The notes: generated by a model from the sequence alone, not told the origin. Shown: positions 2,913-17,904, counted from the first letter of the stretch. The stretch is DNA of 32,000 bases from Methylophaga frappieri (GCF_000260965.1 NC_017856.1:420001-452000); one strand, 5' to 3'. A program made the numbers and translations.

Positions 2913-3001
2913 GAGATACACATACTGATTTTGTGATTACAGCAAGGCGGTACGATTATTGCGTTAAGGTAATACAGCCCATTCGGAATACCGTGAATAC
3001 T

Positions 3002-4762: not shown

Positions 4763-5978
4763 TTTTCACCAAAATGGCATTATCACTACATTACATAATC
4801 TGACGCACCGGCATCAGGCTGATTTAGAGCAGGATTTATTACGCTTTAGCCAACAACGTCCATTAGGGCTACTACTCCCCTCTTTGTATTCCGAATTGGA
4901 GGGTGCCGCTTTACCAGACATTATTCGGCAATTAAAAACGGTGCCTTATCTGTCGGAAATCGTCATTGGCTTAGACCGAGCAGATAAGTCCCAATATCAA
5001 TCGGCATTGCAATTTTTTGGTGAACTGCCGCAACACCACCGGGTTCTCTGGAATGATGGCCCAAGATTACGCGCAATTGATGCTGAACTTCAGGCACTAG
5101 ATCTGGCACCTCGGGAAGCCGGCAAGGGTCGTAACGTCTGGTATTGCATGGGCTATATTCTTGCGTCAGGTAAGGCTGAGTCAGTCGCATTACATGATTG
5201 CGATATTGTGACCTACAGCACCGAGATGTTGGCAAGACTGATTTATCCCGTTGCAAACCCAACATTTAATTACGAATTTTGCAAAGGCTATTATGCCCGG
5301 GTAGCAGGAGGACGGCTCAATGGTCGGGTAAATCGCCTACTCATCACGCCTTTGCTACGTGCTTTAAAGGCGGTGATGGGATCCAATGACTATTTGGATT
5401 ACATGGATAGCTTCCGATATGCCCTCTCTGGCGAGTTTTCTTTTCGTCGGGATGTGTTGACCGATTTACGTATTCCGAGTGACTGGGGATTAGAAATTGG
5501 TGTGTTATCAGAAATGCACCGGAATTATGCTAATAATCGACTTTGTCAGGTCGATATTGCCGACATTTATGACCATAAACATCAAGACTTATCCGCTGAG
5601 GATCCCAAAGCTGGGCTCTCAAAAATGTCCATTGATATTGCCAAGGCTTTATTTCGCAAACTGGCAACAAAAGGGGTCGTTTTTACCCCTGAGCATTTTC
5701 GCAGTATCAAAGCCAGCTATTATCGTATCGCCCTCGATTTTGTTGAAACGTATCGCAATGATGCGCTGATGAACGGCCTTCGCTTTGATATTCATGAAGA
5801 AGAAGCCTCAGTTGAGACATTTGCCGCCAATATCATGTCTGCGGGTCAGGTATTTTTGGAGAATCCGATGGAAACCCCTTTTATTCCAAGCTGGAGTCGT
5901 GTGCAAAGCGCACTACCCGATATTTTTGAACGTCTTTATGCAGCGGTTGAAGCAGACCACGAGGAATTTTCTGGATGA
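4755..5978 (+). CDS. gpgS: Glucosyl-3-phosphoglycerate synthase-like retaining glycosyltransferase (GpgS; MpgS cannot be excluded)
   Basis: The N-terminal MADFHQNGIITTLHNL motif and the DxD-like HDCDIV are as I recall them for GpgS-type enzymes. AGGAG at 4742-4746 sits 8 nt before ATG 4755, which is why I prefer that start over 4737. The gene overlaps the upstream gene by 8 nt. Confidence 0.75.
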   Translation: MADFHQNGIITTLHNLTHRHQADLEQDLLRFSQQRPLGLLLPSLYSELEGAALPDIIRQLKTVPYLSEIVIGLDRADKSQYQSALQFFGELPQHHRVLWNDGPRLRAIDAELQALDLAPREAGKGRNVWYCMGYILASGKAESVALHDCDIVTYSTEMLARLIYPVANPTFNYEFCKGYYARVAGGRLNGRVNRLLITPLLRALKAVMGSNDYLDYMDSFRYALSGEFSFRRDVLTDLRIPSDWGLEIGVLSEMHRNYANNRLCQVDIADIYDHKHQDLSAEDPKAGLSKMSIDIAKALFRKLATKGVVFTPEHFRSIKASYYRIALDFVETYRNDALMNGLRFDIHEEEASVETFAANIMSAGQVFLENPMETPFIPSWSRVQSALPDIFERLYAAVEADHEEFSG

Positions 5979-7726
5979 ATGTTGCCGAAATTCCGCCACT
6001 CCTCCAGATTTGTCGACAACACCTCAATACGGTTTACAGTGGTATTTTAGAAGAGTCCGAACGTCATCAATTAGCCGATGACTTACTGGAGATCATGCGG
6101 CTGACGGCAGATTGCCCGCTCACACCAGCCGATCAAAACAAGTGGCAAGCTGATGACATCGCCGTCATCACCTACGGCAACAGTATTTTGGCCGAAGGTG
6201 AACCGCCGCTGCAAACCCTAAAACGGTTTGCCGACGACTACTTAAAATCCAGCACAAATACGCTGCATATCCTGCCTTTCTTTCCATTTTGTAGCGATGA
6301 CGGTTTCGCCGTTCAGGATTTTACCGCTGTAAACCCAGCCTTGGGAGACTGGAACGATATTCAAGAACTTGCCAAGGCATGGCGATTAATGGCCGATCTG
6401 GTCATTAATCACGCCTCAACTGAAAGCCAATGGTTTCAAAACTTTATTGCTGGCAGCGGTGAAGGTCATGACTATTTTTATACTGTTTCGGCAGATCAAC
6501 CGGGCCTGGATGCGGTGGTGCGACCTCGTGTCAGTCCGTTGTTAAGGCCGACCGAAACAGCTAACGGTCTGCAACAGGTCTGGTGTACGTTCAGTCATAC
6601 GCAAGCTGATTTGGATTTTCGGCGGCCATCAGTACTGAAAACCTTTGTCCGCATCATACGATTTTATCTCGATCAAGGTATTCGTCTGTTCCGACTGGAT
6701 GCGGTCGCATTTTTGTGGAAACAGGCCGGTACTAATTGTCTCAATTTGCCAGAAACCCACGAAATCGTTCGATTATTGCGTCTGCTGACAGAGCAAGCAC
6801 AACCCGATACCGTGATCATCACGGAAACCAATATCCCTAATCGTGAAAATCTCAGCTATTTTGGTAATGGCAATGAAGCTCATTGGATATACAACTTTTC
6901 TCTGCCGCCACTCTTGTTGAATACGCTAATGACGGGCGAGTGTAATTACCTTCGTCAGTGGTTGATGAGTATGCCGCCTGCCCGTCATGGGACAACCTAT
7001 TTTAATTTTATTGCTTCTCATGATGGTATTGGTTTACGACCGGCTGAGGGGTTACTCACTGATGCGGAGCTTGCAGCCTTAATCAGCACCATGCAAAGTT
7101 TTGGTGGCGAAGTTTCTTGGCGCGCAACGGCCAATGGCATCAAAAAACCTTATGAAATTAATATCGCTTTATTTGATGCGATGCAAGGGACGCTGAAAGG
7201 GCCTGACACATGGCAAATCCCCCGCTTTATATGCGCTCACGGCATCATGCTCGCTTTAGAAGGTATTCCCGCTTTCTATTTACACAGTTTATTAGCCACA
7301 AGTAACGATTATCAGCGCGTTGAAGATAAAGGCCATGCACGTGCAATTAATCGACATCAATGGCAGGACACTCAATTAAGAGACTATCTTGATAGCCCTG
7401 AAAATGTGCATGCACAGGTATATCGGCAATTAACCAGACTGATTCAACTGCGCCGAAAACAACCCGCCTTTCATCCGAATGCAACGCAGTATACGTTGCA
7501 ACTTGGCAGTCACTTATTCGGTTTCTGGCGTCAAAGCCTCTGCCGCCAGCAGAGTATTTTTTGTGTGTTTAATATCACCGATACCACTCAGTCCTTAGCG
7601 GTACATGATCTCAATCTGGTGATTACTGACAGCTGGCGTGATCTGGTCAGCGGTCAAGTCCTTGCCAATCAGCAAGAATCAATTCCACTCGCCCCCTATC
7701 AAATGCTCTGGCTAAGCAATCACTAG
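5975..7726 (+). CDS. GH13 subfamily 18 (sucrose-phosphorylase family) enzyme, a candidate glucosylglycerate phosphorylase
   Basis: Collinear with sucrose phosphorylase: HILPFFPF.SDDGFAVQDF..V.P.LG.W.DI, VINHAS, nucleophile region FRLDAVAF, acid/base ITETN, and ASHDGIG. The start overlaps the gpgS stop as ATGA. Confidence 0.85.
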   Translation: MNVAEIPPLLQICRQHLNTVYSGILEESERHQLADDLLEIMRLTADCPLTPADQNKWQADDIAVITYGNSILAEGEPPLQTLKRFADDYLKSSTNTLHILPFFPFCSDDGFAVQDFTAVNPALGDWNDIQELAKAWRLMADLVINHASTESQWFQNFIAGSGEGHDYFYTVSADQPGLDAVVRPRVSPLLRPTETANGLQQVWCTFSHTQADLDFRRPSVLKTFVRIIRFYLDQGIRLFRLDAVAFLWKQAGTNCLNLPETHEIVRLLRLLTEQAQPDTVIITETNIPNRENLSYFGNGNEAHWIYNFSLPPLLLNTLMTGECNYLRQWLMSMPPARHGTTYFNFIASHDGIGLRPAEGLLTDAELAALISTMQSFGGEVSWRATANGIKKPYEINIALFDAMQGTLKGPDTWQIPRFICAHGIMLALEGIPAFYLHSLLATSNDYQRVEDKGHARAINRHQWQDTQLRDYLDSPENVHAQVYRQLTRLIQLRRKQPAFHPNATQYTLQLGSHLFGFWRQSLCRQQSIFCVFNITDTTQSLAVHDLNLVITDSWRDLVSGQVLANQQESIPLAPYQMLWLSNH

Positions 7727-7796
7727 CTGACGCCAGACGGTAACCATGATAGGTTAACTTTGAACTAATTAAGCTAAATCAACGAGGATAGTTTCC

Positions 7797-8648
7797 ATGA
7801 CTAAAACGGTAAAAATCCGCAAATGTCTCTTCCCGGTTGCCGGTTACGGTACCCGGTTTCTACCTGCGACCAAGGCCATGCCGAAAGAAATGTTGCCTAT
7901 CGTGAATAAACCCTTGATTCAATATGGTGTTGAAGAAGCCATGGAAGCTGATTTATCGCAGATGGGTTTTATTACAGGACGCGGTAAGCGGGCTATCGCA
8001 GACCATTTTGATACCAGCTATGAATTAGAGCATCAGATTCGCGGCACCAGCAAAGAAAAGCACCTTGAAGATATACGTCATGTCATGGATACCTGTGACT
8101 TTATGTTTATTCGCCAGCGGGAAATGCTTGGACTTGGCCATGCCATTTTAAGTGGTGAGCCCATGATCGGCCCTGAAGATTTTGCCGTTATTTTGGCTGA
8201 TGATCTCTGTGCACCGCCGACGGATGGCAGCGAACGTGCACTCAGCCAATTAGTCGACCTCTATGCAAAACAGGGCTGTACCGTTATCGCCATTGAGGAA
8301 GTGCCGCCGGAAAATACGGGGAGTTATGGTGTTATTTCCGGTGAAGAAATTGAACCGGGGGTGTTTCGTGTCACCGATATGGTGGAAAAACCCAAACCCG
8401 AAGATGCGCCGAGCAATTTGGCCATCATCGGACGCTATGTGTTTACAAATGATATCTTTGATTACATTCGGAAGACCCCGCCGGGCGCTAACGGCGAAGT
8501 CCAGATTACCGATGCCTTGAAAGTCATGGCTCAAGAAAAACCTGTGTTGGCGTTGAAGTTTAAGGGACAGCGATTTGACTGTGGCAGTATTGGCGGTTTT
8601 GTTCAAGCCACCAATTATTATTATCAAACCGATTATCTGGATAAGTAA
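7797..8648 (+). CDS. galU: UTP--glucose-1-phosphate uridylyltransferase
   Basis: KCLFPVAGYGTRFLPATKAMPKEMLPIVNKPLIQYGVEEA is the classic GalU N-terminus. Length 283 aa; GAGGA ribosome-binding site upstream. Confidence 0.93.
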   Translation: MTKTVKIRKCLFPVAGYGTRFLPATKAMPKEMLPIVNKPLIQYGVEEAMEADLSQMGFITGRGKRAIADHFDTSYELEHQIRGTSKEKHLEDIRHVMDTCDFMFIRQREMLGLGHAILSGEPMIGPEDFAVILADDLCAPPTDGSERALSQLVDLYAKQGCTVIAIEEVPPENTGSYGVISGEEIEPGVFRVTDMVEKPKPEDAPSNLAIIGRYVFTNDIFDYIRKTPPGANGEVQITDALKVMAQEKPVLALKFKGQRFDCGSIGGFVQATNYYYQTDYLDK

Positions 8649-8663
8649 TCTGAGTCCGCCTGA

Positions 8664-9200
8664 TTGATTTTATCTGTGATGACACAGCCGGAAAATTTCA
8701 CCCAAGACGCACTTACCTCTCAAGCCAATGTCCTAGAAGCATTGCTTAAACAATGGCATGAGGCCATCGAGCATGAGAGCAGTGTGTCTGTTTTTTTAAT
8801 TAAAATAGATGCTTATGAGGAGATTGAAAAAAAAGCCGCGTGTACCCGAAAGATTTTGCACAAAATCAATCAGCTATTGAACCGGCAAGACGATCATCTC
8901 TGCCATTTCAACCGCAACATGATAATGTTTATCACGTCAGAACTCTCCTATAGGCAGGCCTGCCAATTCGCTGAGCGAATTCAAGCATCAATTGTGTCGC
9001 TGGGCTTGCAACAACAGATAAATCAAACCGCATCTGCTGGCATCACTCTCAGTATCGGCCATGTCACCTATTCTCCTCAACGCGAAGATACGGTTGGCAT
9101 ATTGGATATTCTCAGTGCGGCAGTTCGGTATTGTCAGGAGGCCAGCAAAGCTGGTGGTAACCGATGTCAAACTCGATTGCACACGACGGTGCTGCGTTAA
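8664..9200 (+). CDS. Stand-alone degenerate GGDEF-domain protein (A-site lost, RxxD I-site retained)
   Basis: The GGDEF fold pattern is visible: VFLIKIDAYEEI (in place of the DxFK..ND region), RQDDHLCHFNRNMIMFI (aligns to RxxD-x5-GGDEF), ITLSIGHV, and AVRYCQEASKAGGNRC (in place of AD.ALY.AK..GRN). The track start is TTG 8664; ATG 8679 (MTQPENF) is an alternative. Confidence 0.65.
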   Translation: MILSVMTQPENFTQDALTSQANVLEALLKQWHEAIEHESSVSVFLIKIDAYEEIEKKAACTRKILHKINQLLNRQDDHLCHFNRNMIMFITSELSYRQACQFAERIQASIVSLGLQQQINQTASAGITLSIGHVTYSPQREDTVGILDILSAAVRYCQEASKAGGNRCQTRLHTTVLR

Positions 9201-9271
9201 CGTTGACAGTAGAATTGGCTCGACTGGAATGCTATATTATGCGCTGACTACACAATGCAGAGGCATCTGTC

Positions 9272-9379
9272 ATGTTAAAAAAACTTGATAAATTTTTGAT
9301 TGAAAAGTTTCCTCATATTATTTTGACCTTTACCGTGTTCTGGTTATCGCTGGTCGCTTGGGGACTGTTTAATTCCTAA
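9272..9379 (+). CDS. Possible 35-aa single-pass membrane peptide
   Basis: Below the ORF-track cutoff, found by eye: MLKKLDKFLIEKFPHIILTFTVFWLSLVAWGLFNS. GAGG lies 8 nt upstream of the ATG, the C-terminal half is hydrophobic, and a terminator-like hairpin follows directly. Confidence 0.3.
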   Translation: MLKKLDKFLIEKFPHIILTFTVFWLSLVAWGLFNS

Positions 9380-9403
9380 GTGTCATTCGACATACCAAGC
9401 ATC

Positions 9404-9431
9404 AAAAAAACCGGTTTTTACCGGTTTTTTT
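9404..9431 (+). terminator. A/T-flanked CCGG hairpin, a likely (bidirectional) terminator ending the glucosylglycerate operon
   Basis: AAAAAAACCGG (9404-9414), loop TTTTTA, CCGGTTTTTTT (9421-9431). Confidence 0.5.
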
Positions 9432-9650
9432 CGTTTCACTGAGCAGCAATACCCACCAGGACACCCCGTTTGTGCTGCAAATGTTCCAGTACAAATAGGC
9501 TCAAATAGTCTTAAAATCAATAATACCTATGAAATAAAGGTTGGCTTGAGTTGCGTTGTCATGATGGATGTCGTTGATAGGTCATGGGTCGCTATTTCGA
9601 TACAATCATATTGTTTGTCTACACCCACCGCCATGAATGAATAACTGACT

Positions 9651-11378
9651 ATGAATCCATTGGAACAGCATCAACTTGCTTTGTCACTAAATTTACCTGA
9701 GACCATCATGGCCAGCCGGTTAGCACAATGGTTATCCACTGGGGGCTTTCAATACCCAGCTGATGAGGATCTTTTTCAGATCAATCGTGAGAACGTCTCG
9801 CAGCAGCACCAGTTATTGCTGAAAGCATGGCTTTTATTTCATCAAAATTTATTAATCGATGCGGGTATCCCCGCGTTTAAAAGTGCAGAAATTGATCAAA
9901 TCGAATATCAAGAAAATGGTCGATTAAGAATAACGATTAGCCTGTTTTCCTTCATCGAATTCCGAAACCTTTTCGTCAATGCCTTATCGCAATGCTTCAC
10001 TTTTATTTTAAAAATGAATGCGACACCTTATTCGCTTGAGGCATTTGACGATCTTGGCAAACGCGTTGAACAACAACTCTATCAGCCACTAAAAAAGGTC
10101 AGTAATGCGGGCTTATCGAATATTCCCATTCTTCAATACGCCTATGAACACCATATCCCTATGCAATATTTTGGTGCCGGTTTGTATCAATTAGGTTGGG
10201 GAGCGAACGCACATTGGTTGAAAGCCAGTAGCACGGAAGAAGATAGTGCAATTGGGGCTAAATTAAGCGGCTATAAACATTTTAGTGCTCAACGGCTAAA
10301 AAGTTTAGGCCTCCCCGCCGCACAGAATGCGTTGGTAAAAACCATTGAACAAGCAGCCGAGTTCGCTGATGAAATTGGCTACCCTGTCGTCGTTAAGCCA
10401 GAACAAGGCAATCGCGGAGAAGGCGTGGTCAAAGATATCACTACGGTGACTCAGCTCAAGCGAGCATTTGAATATAGCAAAAGCTTTAATGAACTAGTCT
10501 TAATCGAAAAACAGGTCACAGGATCTTGTTACCGGTTTTTTGTCTATAAAAACGACGTTATTTACATTAACGGTAATCTGCCAAGAAAGCTTGTCGGCAA
10601 TGGTGAAGCCAATATCGCTGAACTGATTGAAGCCGACACCCGTTATCAAATGACTCGAAAACACTGGCAACGCGACCCCACTATCCCACTTGATACAGAA
10701 ACGCACGATTGTCTCCGTGACCAGAATTTAACCTTGCAAAGTGTGCCTGAGAAGCATCAATCCATCGCGATTCGAAAAATCGGCTCAATGCAATGGGGTA
10801 CTGAGGATGCACCTGCCGTTTGTGATGCTCACCGCGATAATATCGCACTTGCCATTGCGGCGGCAAAAGCCATGAATTTAGCAACGGCGGGGGTAGATAT
10901 GATTATTGAGGATGTGACGCGCTCTTGGCTTGAACAGACGGTTATCGTCAATGAAATCAACTCTTCACCAATGATCGGCGTGAGTAAAGCCTCACTTGAT
11001 GCGCTACCCAAACTGATGCGGTTAATGTTGCCTAATCAGGGGCGTATTCCTGTCACCGTATTTTTAGGAAAAGAGGCCGCATTTGACGCAGCCAGAAAGG
11101 CACAGCAAGCAGCGATAGAAAACAATATTGCCTGCTATCTAACCTCACATCAAACGACGCTCTCCCCAGATCAAAACAGCACCCCAATGACCTTTGAAAC
11201 CGTGTCTCAGCGTGTTAACGCGCTTATGCAGATGCCTAGCGTAGCCGCTTTGATTATCGTGGTTGAGTCCGATTCAGTACTAGAAGAGAAATGGCCAGTT
11301 GACCAGATCGATGAGTTAGTCGTAGTGGATAACGTAAATCAGGCTGTTGAGGATTTTTTTCGGTCACTGTGTAGATGA
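9651..11378 (+). CDS. Cyanophycin-synthetase-like ATP-grasp ligase: CphA-type N domain plus G domain, with a truncated and degenerate M (Mur-ligase-like) remnant
   Basis: ATP-grasp motifs YPVVVKPEQGNRGEGV, VLIEKQVTGSCYRFFV and VIVNEINSSPMIG. The preceding segment (IPILQYAYEHHIPMQYFGAGLYQLGWGANAHWLKASSTEEDSAIGAKLSGYKHFSAQRLKSLGLPAAQ) is collinear with the CphA N/G junction. After the grasp domain, GRIPVTVFLGKEAAF occupies the position of the CphA/Mur P-loop (RIPI.AVTGTNGKTT), and only about 110 aa follow. Confidence 0.75.
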   Translation: MNPLEQHQLALSLNLPETIMASRLAQWLSTGGFQYPADEDLFQINRENVSQQHQLLLKAWLLFHQNLLIDAGIPAFKSAEIDQIEYQENGRLRITISLFSFIEFRNLFVNALSQCFTFILKMNATPYSLEAFDDLGKRVEQQLYQPLKKVSNAGLSNIPILQYAYEHHIPMQYFGAGLYQLGWGANAHWLKASSTEEDSAIGAKLSGYKHFSAQRLKSLGLPAAQNALVKTIEQAAEFADEIGYPVVVKPEQGNRGEGVVKDITTVTQLKRAFEYSKSFNELVLIEKQVTGSCYRFFVYKNDVIYINGNLPRKLVGNGEANIAELIEADTRYQMTRKHWQRDPTIPLDTETHDCLRDQNLTLQSVPEKHQSIAIRKIGSMQWGTEDAPAVCDAHRDNIALAIAAAKAMNLATAGVDMIIEDVTRSWLEQTVIVNEINSSPMIGVSKASLDALPKLMRLMLPNQGRIPVTVFLGKEAAFDAARKAQQAAIENNIACYLTSHQTTLSPDQNSTPMTFETVSQRVNALMQMPSVAALIIVVESDSVLEEKWPVDQIDELVVVDNVNQAVEDFFRSLCR

Positions 11379-12880
11379 CTATGTCGCTCAATTTTTCGCT
11401 CGAAGACAGTCAACGTTTCGTCACCGAGGTCTTGGATCATTACGCAATAACCCAGCCCGATACCATTGCGATTGAAAATGACAACCTTGCTATCAGCTAT
11501 CAGAAACTTAAACAATTAGTGAATGATTGGCAACAAGCACTTGAACAAGCCAATTTACCCAAAGGTCTCTGTATCGGCTTGCGTTTCCACAGTCAAATTG
11601 GCCATCTAATTTGTCACCTTGCTTTACTTAAGCAAAATATCACGCAGGTGATAATCGACCCCCACGATCCCGTCCAACTTCAACAAAATACCGTGATGAC
11701 GTTGGCTATTGACCTGATCCTGCAAGAAACCGCTGAAAACCAACAACAACTTGGTTGTGCCATTCATTCAATTGAAAGCTTGCCCGATAGTCCGCAGTTT
11801 CAAGTTAGCGCAAAGCCCTATTCTCAGGATAGCGTGCTGGTGTTCAGTGGTTCTGGTACCACCTCAAGCCCCAAACATTTTGCTTTTACCTCGACGCAAT
11901 ATGCTGCCATGCTAAAACGCGGTTTAGATGCATGGGTGATAAAGAATCAAGAACGTTACTTTTGCTACTCTCGACTCAACTTTGTTTTTCCACAAAGACA
12001 GGCCTTGTTGTGCTTATCCGTCGGGGCATGCCTTGTTTTATCGGCTAAGCCGATACCAGACCTCATTCAATTTGTCAGAAAACGTCAGGTCGAACATTTG
12101 CTATTGACCGCGAATCAGGCACAGCAGTTTATACTTAACAGCCCCAGCTTAAAAACACCAACTGAAGATCTCGTCCTACCGCATTTAAAAAGTCTGCAGC
12201 TATCCAGCTCGTTAATCAAACAACGTTTACGTAGCACCATAATGGCAAAAGTGACACAACAGCTTTACATTCTTTACGGTGCAAATGAGTTCGGCATTAT
12301 TTCTATGGCCTACCCCGAACAAGTTGCTAACCAGCCAGGAACTGTTGGCGAGGTGCTGCCCAACGTGACCGTGCAAATCATGCATGATGGGGAAAAAACA
12401 TCTCAGCCGGGTGCAATCAGAGTAACAGGTGCGAATATGATCCAGGGCTATGTGGCCGATCCCACAGCAAGCCAAAAAAGCTTTCCAGATGGCGAGTGCT
12501 ATCTGCCAAACGACACAGGATTTTTTACAGCGGATGGCCAATTAATCATTGAAGGTCGAAGCGATGATGCCATCCTTTACACTGGTGTAAATCTCTATCC
12601 AAGGGCACTGGAAGAAGTTCTGGAAGCTCACCCCGCGGTGACAGAAGCCGCGGTCTTTCCCATTTCATTGCCAGATCAGGATGACATCCCCGTTGCTGCG
12701 GTTGAGGTGAACCAGCCCATTGAAGTCAAACTACTGTTAAGTTTTTGTCAAAATCAATTAGGCTGGAAGCGGCCCCAACATATTTTCATCATTGATCAAC
12801 TGCCACGAAATCGCGCTGGCAAGGTGTTGAAAAGACAATTAAAAGAGATGGTTGAGTCAAAGATTCGAGTTCGATCTTAA
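11375..12880 (+). CDS. Stand-alone adenylate-forming enzyme (ANL superfamily: acyl/aminoacyl-AMP ligase)
   Basis: Core motifs: FSGSGTTSSPKHF (divergent A3 P-loop), YGANEFG (A5), LPNDTGFFTADGQLIIEGRSDD (A7/A8), PRNRAGKVLKRQL (A10 lysine). The start overlaps the upstream stop as ATGA. No carrier-protein, condensation or thioesterase gene is nearby. Confidence 0.8.
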   Translation: MTMSLNFSLEDSQRFVTEVLDHYAITQPDTIAIENDNLAISYQKLKQLVNDWQQALEQANLPKGLCIGLRFHSQIGHLICHLALLKQNITQVIIDPHDPVQLQQNTVMTLAIDLILQETAENQQQLGCAIHSIESLPDSPQFQVSAKPYSQDSVLVFSGSGTTSSPKHFAFTSTQYAAMLKRGLDAWVIKNQERYFCYSRLNFVFPQRQALLCLSVGACLVLSAKPIPDLIQFVRKRQVEHLLLTANQAQQFILNSPSLKTPTEDLVLPHLKSLQLSSSLIKQRLRSTIMAKVTQQLYILYGANEFGIISMAYPEQVANQPGTVGEVLPNVTVQIMHDGEKTSQPGAIRVTGANMIQGYVADPTASQKSFPDGECYLPNDTGFFTADGQLIIEGRSDDAILYTGVNLYPRALEEVLEAHPAVTEAAVFPISLPDQDDIPVAAVEVNQPIEVKLLLSFCQNQLGWKRPQHIFIIDQLPRNRAGKVLKRQLKEMVESKIRVRS

Positions 12881-12949
12881 AAAGCGCACTTCATATTGTC
12901 ATCTACCCACTCGTTTTTTGCCGTTTATCTTTGCCAGAAAACGATCATC

Positions 12950-14287
12950 TCAAGCCGATACTTTATGAAATACCGCAATGGATTCCACATGACCGGTGTG
13001 GGGAAACATATCCATGACCCCCGCCGCTGATAATTGATAGCCATATTGCTGGACCAACTCGCCGGCATCTCTTGCAAGGGTTGCCGGGTTGCAAGAGACA
13101 TACACCAGCAACTCGGCCCCCAAATCCGCTAATTGACCTAATACTTCAAATGCACCGCTACGTGGCGGATCAAGCAGAATTTTATTAAACCCGGCTTTGG
13201 CCCACGGGTAATCTGCGAGGCGTGTCTGCGTCAGATCTGCTTGCTCAAATAACGCATTACTCAAATGATTTAATTGTGCATTTCGGCGTGCATGAGCAAC
13301 CAATGAAGCATCGCCCTCGACCCCGATTACCTCCGCAGCACGTTTTGCTAATGGCAAGGTGAAATTGCCGAGACCGCAAAATAAATCCAAGATCCGGTCA
13401 GACTGATTAACGTCCAGTAAAGACATCGCCAGCGGAATCATTTTTTCATTAATACCGGCATTGACCTGCGTGAAATCACCTGGCGCAAAATCTAATCTTA
13501 AACCGGGCTCAGGGGCATAATGCAATTGAGGAGACAATGGCCACAAAGGACTTACCGTATCCGGGCCACCAGATTGTTGATATATCCAAAGATTTTGTTG
13601 CTCGCCAAAGGCAATGAGTTTTTGTTGATCACCTTTTGATAACGGATCCAGATTTCTAAATACCAGTGCTGTATGGGTGTGATCCATCGCCACTTCTATC
13701 TGCGCAATACGCTGATAAGCATCCAGCGAGGCAATCAAATCAGCCAGATCATGCAATCGCAGGCCAACTCTGGGATCCAGCACTTCACATTGCTGCAGCT
13801 CTGCGACAAAGGGCGACGCCTTTTCCCGAAAACCGACCAGCACTTTTTGTTTTTTATGGACATACTTGACTCCAAGTCGTGCTTTTCGGCGGTATCCCCA
13901 TAATGGCCCGGTCAACGGTGATAGCCAATGTTCAGGCGCCAGCTGACCGAAATGATGTAATTGTTCTGCCAATGTTTGTTGTTTTAGCGCCAGTTGCGCC
14001 GCCGGTTCCATATGCATCAAACTGCAACCACCACAGACACCAAAATGTTGGCAGCGAGGTTTGACGCGTTTTGATGAAGCTAAATGTACGGCATCGATTT
14101 TGGCTTCATCATATTTACTATGATGACGGGTGTAATAAAAGCTGACCTCTTCGCCCGCCAAAGCCCCATCGACAAAGACCGTTTTCCCTTCAACTCTGGC
14201 GATACCTCGACCATCATGCGCCAAACCCTCAATGTGCGCGGTGATACGCTCCTGTGAAACCTTTTGTCGTCGCTGTCTGCGCGCCAT
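12950..14287 (-). CDS. rlmD: 23S rRNA (uracil1939-C5)-methyltransferase RlmD (RumA)
   Basis: TRAM-like N-terminus, Fe-S cysteine cluster CQHFGVCGGCSLMHM, SAM motif LDLFCGLGNFTLPLA, and C-terminal catalytic VSCNP. Confidence 0.92.
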   Translation of the reverse strand: MARRQRRQKVSQERITAHIEGLAHDGRGIARVEGKTVFVDGALAGEEVSFYYTRHHSKYDEAKIDAVHLASSKRVKPRCQHFGVCGGCSLMHMEPAAQLALKQQTLAEQLHHFGQLAPEHWLSPLTGPLWGYRRKARLGVKYVHKKQKVLVGFREKASPFVAELQQCEVLDPRVGLRLHDLADLIASLDAYQRIAQIEVAMDHTHTALVFRNLDPLSKGDQQKLIAFGEQQNLWIYQQSGGPDTVSPLWPLSPQLHYAPEPGLRLDFAPGDFTQVNAGINEKMIPLAMSLLDVNQSDRILDLFCGLGNFTLPLAKRAAEVIGVEGDASLVAHARRNAQLNHLSNALFEQADLTQTRLADYPWAKAGFNKILLDPPRSGAFEVLGQLADLGAELLVYVSCNPATLARDAGELVQQYGYQLSAAGVMDMFPHTGHVESIAVFHKVSA

Positions 14288-14302
14288 ATTTTTTCCTGCA
14301 AA

Positions 14303-14337
14303 TAAAAAAGTCCGGCCACGAGGAACGCAACCGGACT
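14303..14337 (-). terminator. Weak intrinsic terminator after ydbL
   Basis: On the minus strand: AGTCCGG, 15-nt loop, CCGGACT, then TTTTTTAT. The stem is short, so confidence is low. Confidence 0.4.
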
Positions 14338-14352
14338 CGAATTAACTCAATG

Positions 14353-14946
14353 TTACTTTTGTTGCCAGCTGCCACCTTGCTGATACCACCAGCCCTGTGC
14401 CGCATTACTCACCCAGCGTCTGGCAAAAGTTTCTTGAATATCACTTTGCCACTCCGGGTGTCCATTAGCTCGGGCTATTTCCGCATAAAGGGCGTTTCTA
14501 TCCTGATTTTCAGCGGCAATTAAGCCATTGATGGTATTACGATCTTTCAAGGCCACGGCTTTTGCATCACGCAACGTAATGAGGCCATCTTGTGTTAACC
14601 CTATCGCGCCACTGTGATAAAACGGTTCTAATTGCGCGTGTCTTGCCTTCATTTTGTCTTGAAGCGCGGTAATCGCAGGAGAGTTAATATTAATGTCAGC
14701 TTGCGCCATTGCCGGTGAAACCAGCCAATTCAGCATTTTCATGGCCACTGGCATAGTCGAAGCTGATGAGGATGACGGACTTAGGGGCGGCTCAACAGCC
14801 TGACCGGGCTGTTTTCCCCAGACATCTTCGATAATCCGATCGGCGGCTTCTTCAGCGGCGGCGGCCGGGAAATAAATATTAATGGTGACACAGGATGCCA
14901 GCAATAAAGCCAGCATACTACTCGAATAAGCGCGTAATCTTTGCAT
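14353..14946 (-). CDS. ydbL: YdbL-like (DUF1318) protein with an N-terminal lipoprotein extension
   Basis: The C-terminal half (AIGLTQDGLITLRD...ENQDRNALYAEIARANG...WVSNAAQGWWYQQGGSWQQK) matches my recollection of DUF1318/YdbL. The N-terminus has a lipobox, LLLASC (Cys19). Confidence 0.65.
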   Translation of the reverse strand: MQRLRAYSSSMLALLLASCVTINIYFPAAAAEEAADRIIEDVWGKQPGQAVEPPLSPSSSSASTMPVAMKMLNWLVSPAMAQADININSPAITALQDKMKARHAQLEPFYHSGAIGLTQDGLITLRDAKAVALKDRNTINGLIAAENQDRNALYAEIARANGHPEWQSDIQETFARRWVSNAAQGWWYQQGGSWQQK

Positions 14947-14956
14947 CGTTACATCC

Positions 14957-17017
14957 TTACTGAATCACAGGTCCTTCACTATTACGAACCGCCTGTAGAC
15001 GATTCAACAAATCCGGCCAATCCACCTGCCGGGTAAAACCACGAACATTAATCCACGGCGGTAAGCCCCCCGCTTTGACAATATAATACCCTTGTTCGTC
15101 TGTTTCGACGCCGTTCATTTTACAAACCTGATTTTGTAAACGACAGCTTAAACCCAGTTTTTCATAGGAAAAGTCTTCAAATACGCTTAGAAAACTCCGT
15201 GATAATGCGCCACTGGCCCCGCCACCAATCTGAGTCAGATTATCGACCGCACGCTGAGATATTCGACGCTTTCCAGGGTTGGACTCTGGTGTCATCAAAG
15301 CGGCATCAAAAGCGACGGGTTGCCAGTCTGACAAACGCAAATCATGAACATAACCAGCCAGTCTCCCAGTAATACGCCCAAATTCGAATACTTGCGTGAT
15401 CATTTCCAGATCAAGCTGCTGAAAATCAATATTCGCCGTTAATTGTGGCAAACTGCCAAAAGGGGACTGAAGCCGTAAATCCCGAATAATCGTCCGGCCA
15501 TCAAACACATTCACCTGCAGCGCGCCATCAACCTCTATTTGCTGGTTCGCATAGCGCACCTCAGGAATCACGCCAGCCAATTTACCTTGCATTTCAGGCC
15601 AGCCTAGCGCGGTTGTCAAGGGTGCCATTGATATCGGAGTCAATTCACCTGAAAATTGCCAATGATTTTGCTGCGTAGATTGATCGTAAACAAAGTGGTC
15701 AATTTGCAGCGCGCCATCAAATAGCGGTAAGACCAAGGGCGATGTTAACTGAATTTCTTGGTTGCTCACGATGGCTGATAGTTGACTTTCCCCTATCGGG
15801 ATCGGCCCGATAGCCGCACTTTGCCAACGCAACTCTACTGGCGATAATTGACCTGTATTTTGCCAGCCAACCTGCCCAGACAGACTTTGCATAGCAAATC
15901 TGTCCTGCTTATCCTGTATATCAAGGTCATCTAATTGAGCCGCAATCTCAATCTGTTCGGGTTGCCATTGCACTTTTCCTGAAATAGCACCATCCAGTTC
16001 TAACTGTCCAGCAGCACTTCCCGTTAGAAAAGGTTGTATCCACCATTGATAAAGCGCCGCTAAATTCAAGCTTTGCCAATCCATCTCGGCATCAATCAAG
16101 GCATTATCTTGAAAACCCAGCTGCCCCGCCACGGTTAAAACGTCCTGCTGCAGGACATTCACTTCTGCAGAATTAATCTCTTTGGCAGCAAAATCAAACA
16201 TGGTATTGCTACTTAAGGATAACGGCGCTTCAGAAAAATCCAAAAACACGGGCGCAAAATAGGTCTGTCCTTCAGATAACATCAGGTCAGTTTGAATCTG
16301 TAACTTGGTGTCCGTGGTTTCCGTTGCATCCATTTCAAGTTGAAATACCAATGCCTCACCGACTTGATTACCGCTTTCATCACTAAAATGAACGGATTCC
16401 CCGTTGAGCTGCATGTCCAATGCAAGCAGTCTCGTCTCTTGGCCTTGTATGGCCGCTTGTAACTTAACTGTTCCAGAAGGCTGCCAGCGCTTCACCGTTT
16501 CGACAATATCAGGAACAAGCCCTTGCGCCATGTCTAAGACTGCCGCAATTCCAATTTCGTCCCCAACAAGATTCAGTTGCCATTGACCTGCTTGTGATTG
16601 AACATCAACATCAACCCTGCCATTACCGATACGAATCGCTTTCAGGTTAATGTCGTAGTGCTGTGCAGCGAGATTAAAGCTAAAATCACTGCTAAGTTTT
16701 TGCACGCCTAAGACAGTATGCTCAAATGCCAAATCGCCATTATCACAGTGCCAATACTCTGCGGCGTAACGCCAATTTGCACAGTTTAAGGCGAGATTTT
16801 TAAGCGATTGTCCGGCGAGTTGTAATTGGTCCAGTTCAACCTGTAATAATAAACGCTGATCAACGATTTCAAAGCCGACTGAGAGACCTTGCAGACTGCC
16901 TTCAGGCAAAGCCAGAGATTCAAGTTGTATTTGAATAGTATCAATCGCTTTAGCTGGCAAAGCGCTTAAGCCCAGCAATAAAATGACGCTCAGAAGTCGG
17001 CACAGACCTGACGTCAT
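14957..17017 (-). CDS. ydbH: YdbH-like AsmA-family protein (putative intermembrane lipid-transfer bridge)
   Basis: 686 aa with a signal/anchor N-terminus and a long repetitive beta-rich body. The C-terminal block ISQRAVDNLTQIGGG...GYYIVKAGGLPPWINVRGF resembles the DctA-YdbH domain. It sits directly upstream of the ydbL homologue, as in the E. coli ydbH-ynbE-ydbL operon. Confidence 0.65.
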   Translation of the reverse strand: MTSGLCRLLSVILLLGLSALPAKAIDTIQIQLESLALPEGSLQGLSVGFEIVDQRLLLQVELDQLQLAGQSLKNLALNCANWRYAAEYWHCDNGDLAFEHTVLGVQKLSSDFSFNLAAQHYDINLKAIRIGNGRVDVDVQSQAGQWQLNLVGDEIGIAAVLDMAQGLVPDIVETVKRWQPSGTVKLQAAIQGQETRLLALDMQLNGESVHFSDESGNQVGEALVFQLEMDATETTDTKLQIQTDLMLSEGQTYFAPVFLDFSEAPLSLSSNTMFDFAAKEINSAEVNVLQQDVLTVAGQLGFQDNALIDAEMDWQSLNLAALYQWWIQPFLTGSAAGQLELDGAISGKVQWQPEQIEIAAQLDDLDIQDKQDRFAMQSLSGQVGWQNTGQLSPVELRWQSAAIGPIPIGESQLSAIVSNQEIQLTSPLVLPLFDGALQIDHFVYDQSTQQNHWQFSGELTPISMAPLTTALGWPEMQGKLAGVIPEVRYANQQIEVDGALQVNVFDGRTIIRDLRLQSPFGSLPQLTANIDFQQLDLEMITQVFEFGRITGRLAGYVHDLRLSDWQPVAFDAALMTPESNPGKRRISQRAVDNLTQIGGGASGALSRSFLSVFEDFSYEKLGLSCRLQNQVCKMNGVETDEQGYYIVKAGGLPPWINVRGFTRQVDWPDLLNRLQAVRNSEGPVIQ

Positions 17018-17904
17018 CAGACCGCCGGAAACACACCCGTTGATAAGTAACGGTCACCCCGATCACAAATGATACAGACAATAACCGCATTGTTAACGGT
17101 CTCGGAAAGCTGCAATGCTGCCGCCACACTACCTCCAGAGGAAACACCAGCAAAGATACCCTCTTCACTGGCCAGACGTCGCATTACCGTTTCCGCTGTC
17201 TGCTGATCCACGTCCCATATTTTATCAACTCGCTCTGATTCATAAATCTCAGGCAAATAGGCGGGCGACCAGCGACGAATGCCTGGAATACTAGCCCCTT
17301 CGGTCGGTTGCACACCAATAATCTGCACGTTTTGGTCCTGTGTTTTCAGATACCGTGATACGCCCATGATGGTACCAGTCGTGCCCATTGCACTCACAAA
17401 ATGCGTCACCTGACCTTGCGTGTCACGCCAGATTTCCGGTCCGGTCGTTTCAAAATGGGCCAGAGGATTATCAAAATTCGCAAACTGATTAAGCACTTTA
17501 CCTTTGCCTTCAGCCTGCATGTTCAGCGCCAAATCACGAGCGGTTTCCATACCATCAACCAGCCTGAGTTCAGCACCGTAAGCACGCATGGATGCCCGAC
17601 GTTCTTCAGACATGTTCTCAGGCATAATCAATACCATTTTGTAGCCAAGTATGGCGGCAACCATGGCCAGTGCAATGCCTGTATTGCCACTGGTTGCTTC
17701 AATCAAGGTATCCCCAGGCGTAATATCACCACGGGCTTGGGCCCGCCGAATCATGCTTAAAACGGGCCTATCTTTGACCGAGCCCGCTGGATTGTTACCT
17801 TCCAGTTTGGCCAGAATAAGATTGGTTGTCTCGCCCGGCAATCGTTGTAACCTGACCAGAGGCGTATTACCAATACAGGCTTCAATGGTTTGAAAATCCA
17901 TCAT
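17017..17904 (-). CDS. cysM: Cysteine synthase B (O-acetylserine sulfhydrylase B)
   Basis: IGNTPLVRLQRL...LAKLEGNNPAGSVKDRP (PLP lysine) and SGNTGIALA. Length 295 aa, typical of CysM. Confidence 0.88.
   Translation of the reverse strand: MMDFQTIEACIGNTPLVRLQRLPGETTNLILAKLEGNNPAGSVKDRPVLSMIRRAQARGDITPGDTLIEATSGNTGIALAMVAAILGYKMVLIMPENMSEERRASMRAYGAELRLVDGMETARDLALNMQAEGKGKVLNQFANFDNPLAHFETTGPEIWRDTQGQVTHFVSAMGTTGTIMGVSRYLKTQDQNVQIIGVQPTEGASIPGIRRWSPAYLPEIYESERVDKIWDVDQQTAETVMRRLASEEGIFAGVSSGGSVAAALQLSETVNNAVIVCIICDRGDRYLSTGVFPAV

What the first reader, a model, noticed from the sequence alone, without database searches (positions are those of the whole stretch)
9651..12880. CphA-derived ATP-grasp ligase translationally coupled to a stand-alone adenylating enzyme: candidate uncharacterised peptide or poly-amino-acid ligase system
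What the sequence shows:
- The 575-aa protein is collinear with the N domain and G (ATP-grasp) domain of cyanophycin synthetase. Its grasp motifs look intact: VVVKPEQGNRGEGV, IEKQVTGSCYRFFV, NEINSSP.
- It lacks a functional M (Mur-ligase-like) domain, which is the module that attaches Arg to the Asp side chain in CphA1.
- Its stop overlaps the start of a 501-aa ANL adenylate-forming enzyme (ATGA at 11375-11378). That enzyme keeps the key catalytic positions: an A7 Asp at the expected spacing before GR.DD, and the A10 GK lysine.
- No carrier protein, condensation domain, thioesterase or CoA-utilising partner is nearby.
- The pair is bounded upstream by a terminator-like hairpin and about 220 nt of spacer, and downstream by the convergent rlmD. 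It therefore looks like a self-contained two-gene unit.

Interpretation: two independent carboxylate-activating chemistries (acyl-phosphate and acyl-adenylate) in one coupled cassette suggest assembly of a small peptide/amide or a modified poly-amino-acid. The ANL enzyme may functionally replace the lost M domain. I do not recognise this pairing as a described pathway. Its position beside a compatible-solute operon raises the possibility of a nitrogen-containing osmolyte or storage compound.
Basis: partly seen in the sequence, partly recalled or inferred. Interest (0 to 1): 0.8.

Follow-up and report, generated by a model that had tools for sequence, protein, structure and literature searches.

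The report
Cyanophycin-synthetase-like ligase paired with adenylating enzyme
Two overlapping genes in Methylophaga frappieri encode a cyanophycin-synthetase look-alike that cannot make cyanophycin, plus an adenylate-forming enzyme; in many other bacteria the same two enzymes are fused into one protein, so they very likely build an unknown amide-linked compound together.

Summary
The window holds a 575-aa CphA-like ATP-grasp gene (9651-11378) and a 501-aa ANL gene (11375-12880) that overlap by ATGA. A strong hairpin lies upstream and a convergent rlmD-like gene downstream.

The 575-aa protein is not a broken cphA. It belongs to a large family conserved along its full length, with at least 150 clusters at 50% identity. 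Its architecture is that of CphA2: an N domain, a G domain and a short dead remnant of the M domain. The ATP, Mg and acyl-phosphate residues are invariant. The residues that recognise Asp and Arg in CphA1 and CphA2 are replaced, and the M-domain P-loop is gone. The database name "cyanophycin synthetase" is therefore almost certainly wrong.

The link to the ANL enzyme is real but not obligatory:
- An ANL is fused or adjacent in 15 of 52 family loci, against about 2% expected by chance.
- At least 39 of the 150 best family representatives are ANL-grasp fusions, always with the ANL at the N terminus.

Pairs of a stand-alone ANL amide-bond synthetase and an ATP-grasp ligase are already known (dapdiamide, cystargolide, belactosin, E-64), so the chemical logic is not new. 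The CphA-type scaffold and the widespread fusion are undescribed. The product is unknown. The best guess is a small N-acyl pseudopeptide, and a cyanophycin-like polymer is not excluded. The osmolyte link is not supported.

The parts
9404..9431 (+). Terminator-like hairpin (12-bp stem, U-rich 3' side) that closes the upstream unit and separates it from the cassette by about 220 nt
   Evidence: RNA fold gives -15.2 kcal/mol, z = -7.1, and 0 of 200 shuffles fold as well. Sequence read. The simple consensus scan missed it because the stem is A/U-rich.
9651..11378 (+). Gene for the 575-aa CphA-like ATP-grasp ligase (N domain, G domain, dead M remnant). Identical to a Methylophaga frappieri protein annotated 'cyanophycin synthetase'.
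   Evidence: ORF. 100% identical public protein P0001. Family conserved over its full length. Profile hit to CphA1 and CphA2 structures. AF2 model with pLDDT 92 and Foldseek hits to CphA1/CphA2.
9651..10094 (+). N domain (about aa 1-148). It has the CphA N-domain fold but lacks the Cx19HxxEH zinc motif.
   Evidence: Foldseek alignments span the whole model, about 600 columns. No sequence-profile hit. The motif described in PMC9262961 is absent from the sequence.
10095..11036 (+). G (ATP-grasp) domain (about aa 149-462). The catalytic set K209, K249, E286, R295, E435 and N437 is intact. The CphA Asp/Arg-recognition residues are replaced.
   Evidence: NCBIfam matches aa 147-444 to CphA model positions 152-451 at 199 bits against a cut-off of 877. 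Residue map made by hmmalign, with residue roles taken from PMC9427784.
11037..11375 (+). [quoted passage not shown]
   Evidence: GRIPVTVFLGKEAAFD aligns to CphA1 GRIPILSVTGTNGKTT. K499 to A477, T500 to F478, T522 to H500, E558 to V537.
11375..11378 (+). ATGA stop/start overlap (translational coupling). An alternative ANL start lies at 11381.
   Evidence: Sequence. The same 4-nt overlaps occur in L001 (GTGA) and L033 (ATGA). The public annotation uses the second ATG.
11375..12880 (+). Gene for the 501-aa stand-alone ANL (class I adenylate-forming) enzyme of a distinct subfamily
   Evidence: PF00501 at 100 bits and PF13193 at 42 bits; no NCBIfam equivalog reaches its cut-off. Motifs A3, A5, A7, A8 and A10 are conserved. 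AF2 model with pLDDT 90.7, nearest to MenE and to the amide-bond synthetase McbA.

Best explanation
The cassette is the split form of a widespread, uncharacterised two-ligase system that forms amide bonds without an NRPS and without a carrier protein.

Proposed mechanism:
1. The ANL enzyme adenylates a carboxylic acid, using ATP to give AMP and PPi. It then passes the acyl group directly to an amine, most likely the amino group of an amino acid. The product is an N-acyl compound with a free carboxylate. The acid is probably not an alpha-amino acid.
2. The CphA-like enzyme phosphorylates a carboxylate, using ATP to give ADP and Pi, with its intact G-domain machinery. The carboxylate is most plausibly the one on the ANL product. 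It then couples an amino acid or amine to it, once or a few times.
3. The N domain and the dead M remnant serve as scaffold and oligomerisation elements, as they do in CphA2.

The product is a small N-acyl pseudopeptide of unknown identity, not cyanophycin.

What is shown: both enzymes are intact; their genes are linked and fused in many lineages; the cyanophycin-specific residues are absent.
What is inferred: the order of the steps, direct amine attack by the ANL rather than CoA, the number of additions by the G domain, and the nature of the substrates.
For: Both enzymes look active:
- The grasp residues K209, K249, R295, R375, E435 and N437 are invariant in 32 of 32 family members.
- The ANL motifs A3, A5, A7, A8 and A10 are at least 90% conserved in 43 linked ANLs.
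- Both AF2 models are confident.

Functional linkage:
- An ANL is fused or adjacent in 15 of 52 family loci, against 1 of 36 loci of a sister CphA-like group (Fisher p = 0.0016). About 2% is expected from the background ANL density.
- In the exhaustive search, 49 of the best 150 representatives are at least 889 aa long with the grasp part in the C-terminal half. Of the 43 scanned, 39 carry PF00501.
- 4-nt start/stop overlaps occur in three loci.
- The only family-level ANL found in the metagenome scan has a grasp gene directly downstream.

Order of steps: all fusions place the ANL at the N terminus and the grasp part at the C terminus. NCBIfam places the matching ATP-grasp module at the C-terminal end of GshF and of the NAGGN synthetase Ngg. 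From my own knowledge of those two enzymes, the N-terminal module makes the first bond and the grasp module then extends the new free carboxylate.

Carrier-free logic:
- The window holds no PP-binding, C or TE domain.
- None was recurrent among 182 neighbouring ORFs.
- The structurally closest proteins include the amide-bond synthetase McbA (TM 0.82).
- Known precedents pair an ANL amide-bond synthetase with an ATP-grasp ligase.

Small molecule rather than polymer:
- Related clusters carry several ANLs and several grasp paralogues.
- They also carry tailoring enzymes: 2OG oxygenases, OCD, GNAT, methyltransferases and GT4.
- Sister sub-clades swap the ANL for an OCD enzyme.
Against: - No substrate or product is known for any member.
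- Retention of the CphA N domain and the shallow, polymer-type scaffold could instead mean an oligomer or polymer substrate.
- The ANL cannot be told apart from a CoA ligase by sequence or fold. MenE matches as well as McbA.
- The linkage is not obligatory. About 70% of family loci have no ANL within 10 kb, and one 38%-identical ANL has no grasp nearby.
- The gene order here (grasp, then ANL) is the reverse of the fusion order.
- No exporter, regulator or precursor-supply gene belongs to the Methylophaga cassette.
Confidence: 0.5

Rival explanations
1. The system makes a new cyanophycin-like branched or capped poly-amino-acid. The G domain iteratively extends a peptide backbone at its C terminus, as in CphA1 and CphA2. 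The ANL takes over the job of the lost M domain, adenylating side-chain carboxylates to attach an amine or amino acid, or else it makes the primer or cap.
For: - The whole N-G-M' scaffold of a polymerase is retained, and the fold matches CphA1 and CphA2 over about 600 columns.
- The residue that holds the C-terminal carboxylate of the chain (R309, here R295) is invariant.
- The ANL is physically fused to the scaffold in a quarter or more of the family, as the M domain is in CphA1.
- Tandem and double-grasp fusions exist.
Against: - Residues that bind the Arg-decorated polymer and the incoming Asp are not kept: E215, H267, R323, N394 and R458.
- The N-domain primer-generating zinc motif is absent.
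- No depolymerase (cyanophycinase-like) gene is in the window.
- Clusters with many ligases and tailoring enzymes look like stepwise assembly.
- The ANL is fused at the opposite end from where the M domain sits.
Confidence: 0.2
2. The pair modifies a macromolecule rather than making a free metabolite. Candidates are amino-acylation or amidation of a surface glycan or uronic acid, or a RimK-like addition to a protein C terminus.
For: - GT4 glycosyltransferases occur in 5 of 11 ANL-linked loci, and methyltransferases in 4.
- Marinomonas has GT9-grasp-ANL with a PIG-L gene nearby.
- L013 has GT-ANL and ANL-PIG-L fusion proteins.
- Two family members are fused to LicD.
Against: - The Methylophaga cassette has no glycosyltransferase, flippase or polysaccharide gene in its transcription unit.
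- Both proteins lack signal peptides or membrane segments in the models.
- The GT association is found in a minority of loci.
Confidence: 0.15
3. The two genes are only neighbours. The ANL is an ordinary acyl-CoA ligase of lipid or aromatic-acid metabolism, and the grasp enzyme works alone.
For: - Most family loci lack an ANL.
- One ANL relative stands alone.
- The best NCBIfam matches of the ANL are CoA ligases.
Against: - The fusions and the roughly 14-fold enrichment of adjacency argue against chance.
- 4-nt overlaps are conserved in three loci.
- The ANL reaches no equivalog cut-off.
- The linked ANLs share unusual motif variants: YGxNE, P(G/N)D and PRNxxGK.
Confidence: 0.08
4. The protein is a genuine cyanophycin synthetase, a CphA2-type beta-Asp-Arg polymerase, as the public annotation says.
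For: - The database name.
- The best profile and structure matches are CphA1 and CphA2.
- The CphA2-like architecture. D348 and R375 match two of the four CphA2 residues needed for activity.
Against: - It scores 194-199 bits against curated cut-offs of 850-877.
- N393/N394 becomes S and S395/S396 becomes Q or a variable residue; H267 becomes R, R458 becomes G, and E215 is not kept.
- No cphA1 or cyanophycinase gene is in the window.
- The family branches apart from true CphA1 in the tree.
- PMC10206079 describes CphA2 as a cyanobacterial enzyme.
Confidence: 0.05

Closest known systems
Cyanophycin synthetase 2 (CphA2; PDB 7ta5, 8fxh/8fxi)
   Same: - Three-part architecture: N domain, ATP-grasp G domain, and a truncated inactive M domain.
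- A single active site.
- Similar length (about 580-640 aa).
- The fold matches over the whole chain (Foldseek E = 3e-31, TM 0.54-0.59).
- The ATP-grasp catalytic residues, plus D362 and R389 equivalents, are kept.
   Different: - The N393 and S395 equivalents are replaced, as are H267 and R458.
- The family is not cyanobacterial.
- No cyanophycin metabolism genes lie nearby.
- It is linked or fused to an ANL enzyme, which CphA2 is not.
- Sequence identity is only about 20%.
Cyanophycin synthetase 1 (CphA1; PDB 7wac, 7lg5, 7lgm, 7lgn)
   Same: - Best sequence-profile match (E = 6e-91) and best structural match (E = 3e-35).
- N and G domains are collinear.
- The chemistry is the same: a carboxylate is phosphorylated and an amine then attacks.
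   Different: - No functional M domain: the P-loop and Mg ligands are lost, and about 300 residues are missing.
- No N-domain zinc motif.
- The residues that recognise Asp and the Arg-decorated polymer are replaced.
- It scores far below the curated cut-offs.
Bifunctional enzymes ending in a CphA-type ATP-grasp module: GshF (PDB 3ln6/3ln7) and the NAGGN synthetase Ngg (TIGR03103)
   Same: - They are the next-closest relatives of the G domain (116 and 93 bits; Foldseek E = 1e-22).
- NCBIfam places the matching ATP-grasp module at the C-terminal end of both proteins, the same order as the ANL-grasp fusions.
- From my own knowledge, the N-terminal module makes the first bond and the products are small peptides, one of them an osmolyte.
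   Different: - The partner module here is an ANL enzyme, not glutamate-cysteine ligase or a GNAT.
- This family keeps the CphA N domain and the M remnant, which GshF and Ngg lack.
- Curated cut-offs are not reached.
NRPS-independent pairs of a stand-alone ANL amide-bond synthetase and an ATP-grasp ligase: dapdiamide DdaG/DdaF, cystargolide CysC/CysD, belactosin BelV/BelU, E-64 Cp1D/Cp1B (PMC12568646, PMC11427300)
   Same: - One acyl-adenylate enzyme and one acyl-phosphate enzyme each make one amide bond of a pseudopeptide.
- No carrier protein or condensation domain is needed.
- A 2OG oxygenase is often present in the cluster. This is also seen next to relatives of this family.
   Different: - No homology of this ANL to DdaG, CysC or CfaL was shown here.
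- The two enzymes are not reported as natural fusions in those pathways.
- The product here is unknown.

Membership tests
Cyanophycin synthetase 1 (CphA1) | Full Mur-ligase-like M domain with an ATP P-loop (GTNGKT; K499, T500) and Mg ligands (T522, E558) | tested here: not met
   The protein ends about 110 residues into the M domain. K499 to A477, T500 to F478, T522 to H500, E558 to V537; the same holds in 24-26 of 32 family members.
Cyanophycin synthetase 1 (CphA1) | G-domain residues that bind the incoming Asp and the Arg-decorated chain (H267, R323, N394, S396, R458, E215') | tested here: not met
   H267 to R255, R323 to N309, N394 to S379, S396 to Q381, R458 to G443, E215 to K204. Residue roles are from PMC9427784.
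Cyanophycin synthetase 1 (CphA1) | Reaches the curated equivalog score (TIGR02068 at 850 bits; NF010623 at 877 bits) | tested here: not met
   194 and 199 bits, covering the G domain only.
Cyanophycin synthetase 1 (CphA1) | N-domain Cx19HxxEH metallopeptidase motif (present in 83% of CphA1) | tested here: not met
   No HxxEH in residues 1-150 (sequence). Motif described in PMC9262961. It is also absent from CphA2 and from 17% of CphA1, so this is a weak criterion.
Cyanophycin synthetase 1 (CphA1) | Usually clustered with a cyanophycinase gene | tested here: not met
   No peptidase S51 or cyanophycinase in the 32-kb window. The rest of the genome was not available.
Cyanophycin synthetase 2 (CphA2) | Architecture of N domain, G domain and a truncated inactive M domain | tested here: met
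   Profile alignment runs into the M domain. Foldseek to 8fxi and 7ta5 over 559-606 columns. Dead P-loop.
Cyanophycin synthetase 2 (CphA2) | [quoted passage not shown] | tested here: not met
   D348 and R375 are kept. The N393 equivalent is S379 (S in 26 of 32) and the S395 equivalent is Q381 (variable). Roles are from PMC10273328.
Cyanophycin synthetase 2 (CphA2) | Polymerises beta-Asp-Arg into cyanophycin | not testable with these tools
   Needs an enzyme assay.
ATP-grasp superfamily | ATP-binding lysines, hinge Glu, catalytic Arg and the Mg-binding E-x-N | tested here: met
   K209, K249, R295, E435 and N437 are invariant in 32 of 32, and E286 in 31 of 32. Pfam ATP-grasp families are above their cut-offs.
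ANL (class I adenylate-forming) superfamily | PF00501 plus PF13193, and core motifs A3 (P-loop), A5, A7 Asp, A8 hinge and A10 Lys | tested here: met
   100 and 42 bits against cut-offs of 29.9 and 24.5. SGSGTTSSPK, YGANE, D380, GRSDD and G482-K483 are at least 90% conserved in 43 linked ANLs. Complete two-lobe model.
Named acyl-CoA ligases (MenE, FadD types, malonyl- and oxalyl-CoA synthetases) | Reaches a curated equivalog cut-off | tested here: not met
   The best hit is 161 bits against a cut-off of 476. MenE scores 129 against 330.
NRPS-type amino-acid adenylation domain | A4 Asp (PheA D235) that binds the alpha-amino group; TIGR01733 cut-off | tested here: not met
   118 bits against 317. 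The position 13 residues before the conserved Gly of 'VGA' is V204 and is variable in the family. The register was set by hand against 4CL and PheA, so confidence is moderate.
Amide-bond synthetases (McbA, CfaL, CysC, DdaG) | The acyl-adenylate is attacked directly by an amine, without CoA or a carrier protein | not testable with these tools
   This is a functional definition. McbA (6sq8) gives the highest TM-score (0.82), but CoA ligases such as MenE match equally well. The absence of a carrier protein in the window is consistent with it.

The most novel reading that the evidence does not exclude
The ANL + CphA-like pair, and its widespread single-chain fusion, is a third kind of cyanophycin-type synthetase. 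It would make a previously unseen non-ribosomal poly-amino-acid. [quoted passage not shown] Such a polymer would be present across Proteobacteria, Chlorobi and other phyla.
Probability: 0.2. Interest if true: 0.85.

Novelty: new variant of a known kind. Interest (0 to 1): 0.6.

Why it matters
A large family of proteins, found in many phyla and often labelled "cyanophycin synthetase", does not have the residues needed to make cyanophycin. At least 150 clusters at 50% identity belong to it. It is tied to a distinct adenylate-forming enzyme, and a quarter or more of the family is fused to that enzyme in one roughly 1,100-aa chain.

- **Annotation:** the finding corrects a systematic naming error.
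- **Enzyme discovery:** it defines a compact two-enzyme (or one-fusion) amide-forming system that needs no carrier protein. That makes it attractive as a biocatalyst, as McbA, CfaL, CysC/CysD and Cp1B/Cp1D have been.
- **Chemistry:** it points to an unknown metabolite or polymer made by marine and environmental bacteria.
- **Testability:** the system is small enough to test directly. Cultured strains carry each form. The split form is in Methylophaga frappieri and Marinomonas fungiae, the fusion in Jhaorihella thermophila DSM 23413, and the 2OG-oxygenase-linked form in Stutzerimonas stutzeri V81 and Oceanisphaera marina.

Tried and rejected
- **Frameshifted or truncated cphA:** rejected. 32 relatives of 566-648 aa align end to end, and the ANL start follows at once.
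- **Defence system:** no PADLOC hits.
- **Plasmid search (tblastn):** found only true cphA genes at 24-35% identity and no family member.
- **Metagenome scan seeded with the ANL alignment:** the back-translated motifs were too generic. 79 of the 80 loci were ordinary ANLs scoring about 100-260 bits, with no grasp nearby. They were useful only as a negative control.
- **Net charge and pI of the family against CphA1, as a hint to substrate charge:** uninformative. The window's own clade is as acidic as CphA1 and the rest is near neutral.
- **Sigma-70 promoter scan of the 220-nt spacer:** no match above chance. The consensus terminator scan missed the A/U-rich hairpin, which was confirmed by folding instead.
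- **Fold search of the ANL to separate amide synthetase from CoA ligase:** not discriminating.
- **Literature searches** for 'cyanophycin synthetase-like', for CphA plus AMP-binding fusions, and for 'CphA3' found nothing relevant. CphA3 is an Aeromonas beta-lactamase.
- **A universal third partner gene:** none found. 2OG oxygenase, GT4, methyltransferase, OCD and GNAT each occur in a minority of loci.

Full report
**1. What is in the sequence**

The window holds two co-directional ORFs, 9651..11378 (575 aa) and 11375..12880 (501 aa). The junction reads gtagATGActATG, so the stop of the first gene overlaps an ATG of the second. The public annotation of the identical Methylophaga frappieri proteins calls them "cyanophycin synthetase" and "class I adenylate-forming enzyme family protein". 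It starts the second protein two codons later, giving 499 aa. Either start leaves the genes tightly coupled.

Upstream, a 12-bp hairpin at 9404-9431 (-15.2 kcal/mol, z = -7.1) is followed by about 220 nt of spacer. Downstream lies a convergent TRAM + U5-methyltransferase (rlmD-like) gene. G+C content is unremarkable.

The rest of the window divides as follows:
- Upstream is a glucosylglycerate operon. It holds a kinase-GpgP fusion, GpgS, a GH13_18 phosphorylase and GalU, followed by a small stand-alone GGDEF-domain gene.
- Downstream is housekeeping: acpS, pdxJ, recO, era, rnc, lepB, lepA and rse genes.
- No carrier protein, condensation domain, thioesterase or cyanophycinase is present.

**2. 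The 575-aa protein is an intact member of a distinct CphA-like family**

Curated profiles match only residues 147-444, to positions 152-451 of the cyanophycin synthetase models. The score is 194-199 bits against cut-offs of 850-877. The next hits are the NAGGN synthetase Ngg and GshF.

A search of 5.8 billion proteins found relatives of 566-648 aa at 60% down to 23% identity. They align from end to end. The ORF is therefore not a truncated or frameshifted cphA.

A profile of these 32 sequences hits CphA1 structures at E = 6e-91. The alignment runs from CphA1 residue 119 to 575, which is into the M domain. CphA2 structures score about 1e-77 to 1e-80.

An AlphaFold2 model (pLDDT 92.1, pTM 0.88) aligns over about 600 columns with CphA1 (7wae, 7lgm, 7lgn; E = 1e-35 to 1e-30; TM up to 0.67). 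It aligns similarly with CphA2 (8fxi, 7ta5; E = 3e-31). GshF and D-Ala-D-Ala ligases follow.

The architecture is therefore N domain + G domain + truncated M remnant.

**3. Residue-level test against cyanophycin synthetases**

I used the roles assigned in the TeCphA1 and StCphA2 structures (PMC9427784, PMC10273328) and an hmmalign mapping.

Residues kept:

| TeCphA1 | This protein | Conservation in 32 family members |
|---|---|---|
| K220 | K209 | 32/32 |
| K261 | K249 | 32/32 |
| E300 | E286 | 31/32 |
| R309 | R295 | 32/32 |
| D363 | D348 | 31/32 |
| R390 | R375 | 32/32 |
| E450 | E435 | 32/32 |
| N452 | N437 | 32/32 |

Residues specific to cyanophycin chemistry that are replaced:

| TeCphA1 | This protein | Note |
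|---|---|---|
| H267 | R255 | R in 29/32 |
| R269 | E257 | E in 28/32 |
| E215' | K204 | variable in the family |
| R323 | N309 | in the window's own clade; R in 24 of the 32 family members |
| N394 | S379 | S in 26/32 |
| S396 | Q381 | variable |
| G456 / R458 | M441 / G443 | G443 in 30/32 |

M-domain residues lost: K499 to A477, T500 to F478, T522 to H500 and E558 to V537. The N-domain Cx19HxxEH zinc motif (PMC9262961) is also absent.

The conclusion is that this is an active ATP-grasp ligase on a CphA scaffold. Neither CphA1 nor CphA2 specificity is retained. An NJ tree places the family apart from true CphA1. It also sits apart from a second, ANL-free group of CphA-like proteins of 600-700 aa.

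**4. The ANL enzyme**

- PF00501 and PF13193 are clearly met, but no NCBIfam equivalog is reached.
- The motifs are present: A3 (SGSGTTSSPK), A5 (YGANE), A7 (P-N-D380), A8 (GRSDD...G.N.YP) and A10 (PRNRAG-K483). They are at least 90% conserved over 43 ANLs that are fused or adjacent to family members.
- Those ANLs share unusual variants: YGxNE, P(G/N)D and PRNxxGK.
- The position equivalent to the NRPS alpha-amino-binding Asp is V204 and is variable in the family. I set that register by hand. It suggests an acid other than an alpha-amino acid.
- The AF2 model is complete and confident (pLDDT 90.7). Its nearest structures are MenE and the amide-bond synthetase McbA (TM 0.82), followed by aryl-acid adenylating enzymes. 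This does not separate a CoA ligase from an amide synthetase.

**5. Do the two genes belong together?**

Neighbourhoods in the window's own clade:
- L001 (58% identity) has the grasp gene followed by two ANLs, the first overlapping by GTGA.
- Marinomonas fungiae has GT9-grasp-ANL.
- The sister sub-clade P0006/P0007 carries an OCD/mu-crystallin gene in the same downstream slot.
- One locus has a second grasp paralogue downstream.

A scan of one genome per GTDB species, added to the earlier loci, gave 88 distinct loci:
- Among the 52 loci that score as family members, an ANL is fused in 8, adjacent in 7, and within 1-2.5 kb in 3.
- Among 36 sister-group loci, an ANL is fused or adjacent in 1 (Fisher p = 0.0016).
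- The background ANL density in the same flanks predicts about 2% by chance.
- All fusions have a full ANL at the N terminus followed by the full N-G-M' protein.

An exhaustive phmmer search of 1.84 billion representatives gave 1,244 hits at E <= 1e-30, and the best 150 all have E < 1e-68. Of those 150, 49 are at least 889 aa long with the grasp part in the C-terminal half. Of the 43 scanned, 39 carry PF00501 and 38 carry PF13193.

In the reverse direction:
- The ANLs closest to the window's are next to a grasp gene in the window, L001, L012, L013 and L096.
- P0130, at 38% identity, stands alone.

The linkage is therefore strong and ancient, seen in two clades as both fusions and overlaps, but it is not obligatory.

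**6. Other recurring neighbours**

No third partner is universal.
- Among 74 same-strand neighbours, the commonest families were 2OG-Fe(II) oxygenases (5), GT4 (4), OCD (3), methyltransferases (3) and GNAT (3).
- Around 11 ANL-linked loci, GT4 occurs in 5 and methyltransferases in 4.
- Some clusters are large. L008 has an ANL, an ANL-grasp fusion, GT4, a methyltransferase, two more grasp paralogues and a Mur-ligase-like protein.
- L013 has five ANLs, including GT-ANL and ANL-PIG-L fusions, plus a full-length CphA1-like protein.
- No carrier protein was recurrent.
- The glucosylglycerate genes beside the Methylophaga cassette were not seen in the related loci whose neighbourhoods were read, nor in the neighbour censuses.

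**7. Most likely mechanism**

What is shown: there are two intact ATP-dependent carboxylate-activating enzymes, genetically coupled and frequently fused, without a carrier protein, and without cyanophycin specificity.

What is inferred:
- NCBIfam places the matching ATP-grasp module at the C-terminal end of GshF and Ngg. From my own knowledge of those enzymes, the N-terminal module makes the first bond and the C-terminal grasp module extends the free carboxylate.
- The known amide-bond-synthetase + ATP-grasp pairs are DdaG/DdaF, CysC/CysD, BelV/BelU and Cp1B/Cp1D (PMC12568646, PMC11427300).
- By analogy with both, the ANL most likely N-acylates an amine or amino acid through an acyl-adenylate.
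- The CphA-like G domain then phosphorylates the resulting free carboxylate and adds one or a few amino acids.
- The result would be a small N-acyl pseudopeptide.

The presence of several ligases and tailoring enzymes in related clusters favours stepwise small-molecule assembly (confidence about 0.5).

The main rival is a cyanophycin-like polymer in which the ANL replaces the M domain or primes or caps the chain (about 0.2). It lacks specific support. Other rivals are macromolecule or glycan modification (about 0.15), mere neighbours (about 0.08) and a true cyanophycin synthetase (about 0.05).

**8. Novelty and verdict**

The chemical logic of an acyl-adenylate ligase paired with an acyl-phosphate ligase, without an NRPS, is known. 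So is the N-G-dead-M architecture (CphA2). What appears undescribed is a separate, widespread CphA-derived family with altered specificity residues that is coupled, and often fused, to its own ANL subfamily. I found no paper on it, and curated libraries do not name it.

I rate it a new variant of a known kind, with interest 0.6. It is a solid, directly testable lead for enzyme and metabolite discovery, and it corrects an annotation. The surprise would be high only if the product turns out to be a new biopolymer.

Noticed in passing
window 2933-8648 (+): A glucosylglycerate compatible-solute operon. It holds a 609-aa fusion of a nucleotide-kinase-like domain with a mannosyl/glucosyl-3-phosphoglycerate phosphatase, then GpgS (NF040724, 364 bits, below its cut-off of 700), a GH13_18 sucrose-phosphorylase-like enzyme (probably a glucosylglycerate phosphorylase) and GalU. 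The kinase-phosphatase fusion is unusual.
   Followed up: partly
window 8664-9200 (+): A 178-aa stand-alone GGDEF-domain protein with a TTG start. Where the GG(D/E)EF signature is expected the sequence reads NMIMF, so it is probably catalytically inactive.
   Followed up: no
window 9273-9380 (+) and 9404-9431: A 35-aa hydrophobic ORF (MLKKLDKFLIEKFPHIILTFTVFWLSLVAWGLFNS) lies directly before the strong A/U-rich hairpin. It may be a small membrane peptide or a chance ORF.
   Followed up: no
window 14353-17017 (-): A DUF1318 (YdbL-like) gene next to a 686-aa ORF with no Pfam or NCBIfam hit. It may be a YdbH/AsmA-like envelope protein.
   Followed up: no
L013 (MAG GCA_029935855.1), 3022-18245: A large cluster with five ANLs of the Methylophaga type. 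These include a glycosyltransferase(DXD)-ANL fusion and an ANL-PIG-L deacetylase fusion. The cluster also has a 593-aa CphA-like protein, two SDRs and a full-length 883-aa CphA1-like protein. It suggests acylation of a deacetylated amino sugar.
   Followed up: partly
P0225, P0227 (about 1,120 aa) and two other family members: Tandem double CphA-like grasp fusions, and two family members carrying a LicD (phosphocholine/sugar-phosphate transferase) domain.
   Followed up: no
L006 2953-3957 and L095 4047-4298: In the sister sub-clade (P0004, P0006, P0007), an ornithine-cyclodeaminase/mu-crystallin gene occupies the slot held by the ANL in Methylophaga, overlapping or directly following the grasp gene. 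The two copies are 74% identical. L006 continues with a TPR-GNAT gene and SapC.
   Followed up: partly
L062-L092 (e.g. Pseudidiomarina homiensis L065, Halomonas lysinitropha L078, Chlorobiaceae L081 with three tandem copies): A second, separate group of CphA-like proteins of 600-700 aa. They score about 390-460 bits against the family profile and show no ANL association. This group also appears uncharacterised.
   Followed up: no
L001, L006, L093, L095 flanks: DUF4160/DUF2442 gene pairs, SapC and 2OG-FeII_Oxy_5 genes recur next to loci of the window's own clade. In the Pseudomonas, Stutzerimonas and Oceanisphaera clade, a PKHD/YbiX-type Fe(II) dioxygenase lies directly upstream of the grasp gene.
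   Followed up: partly
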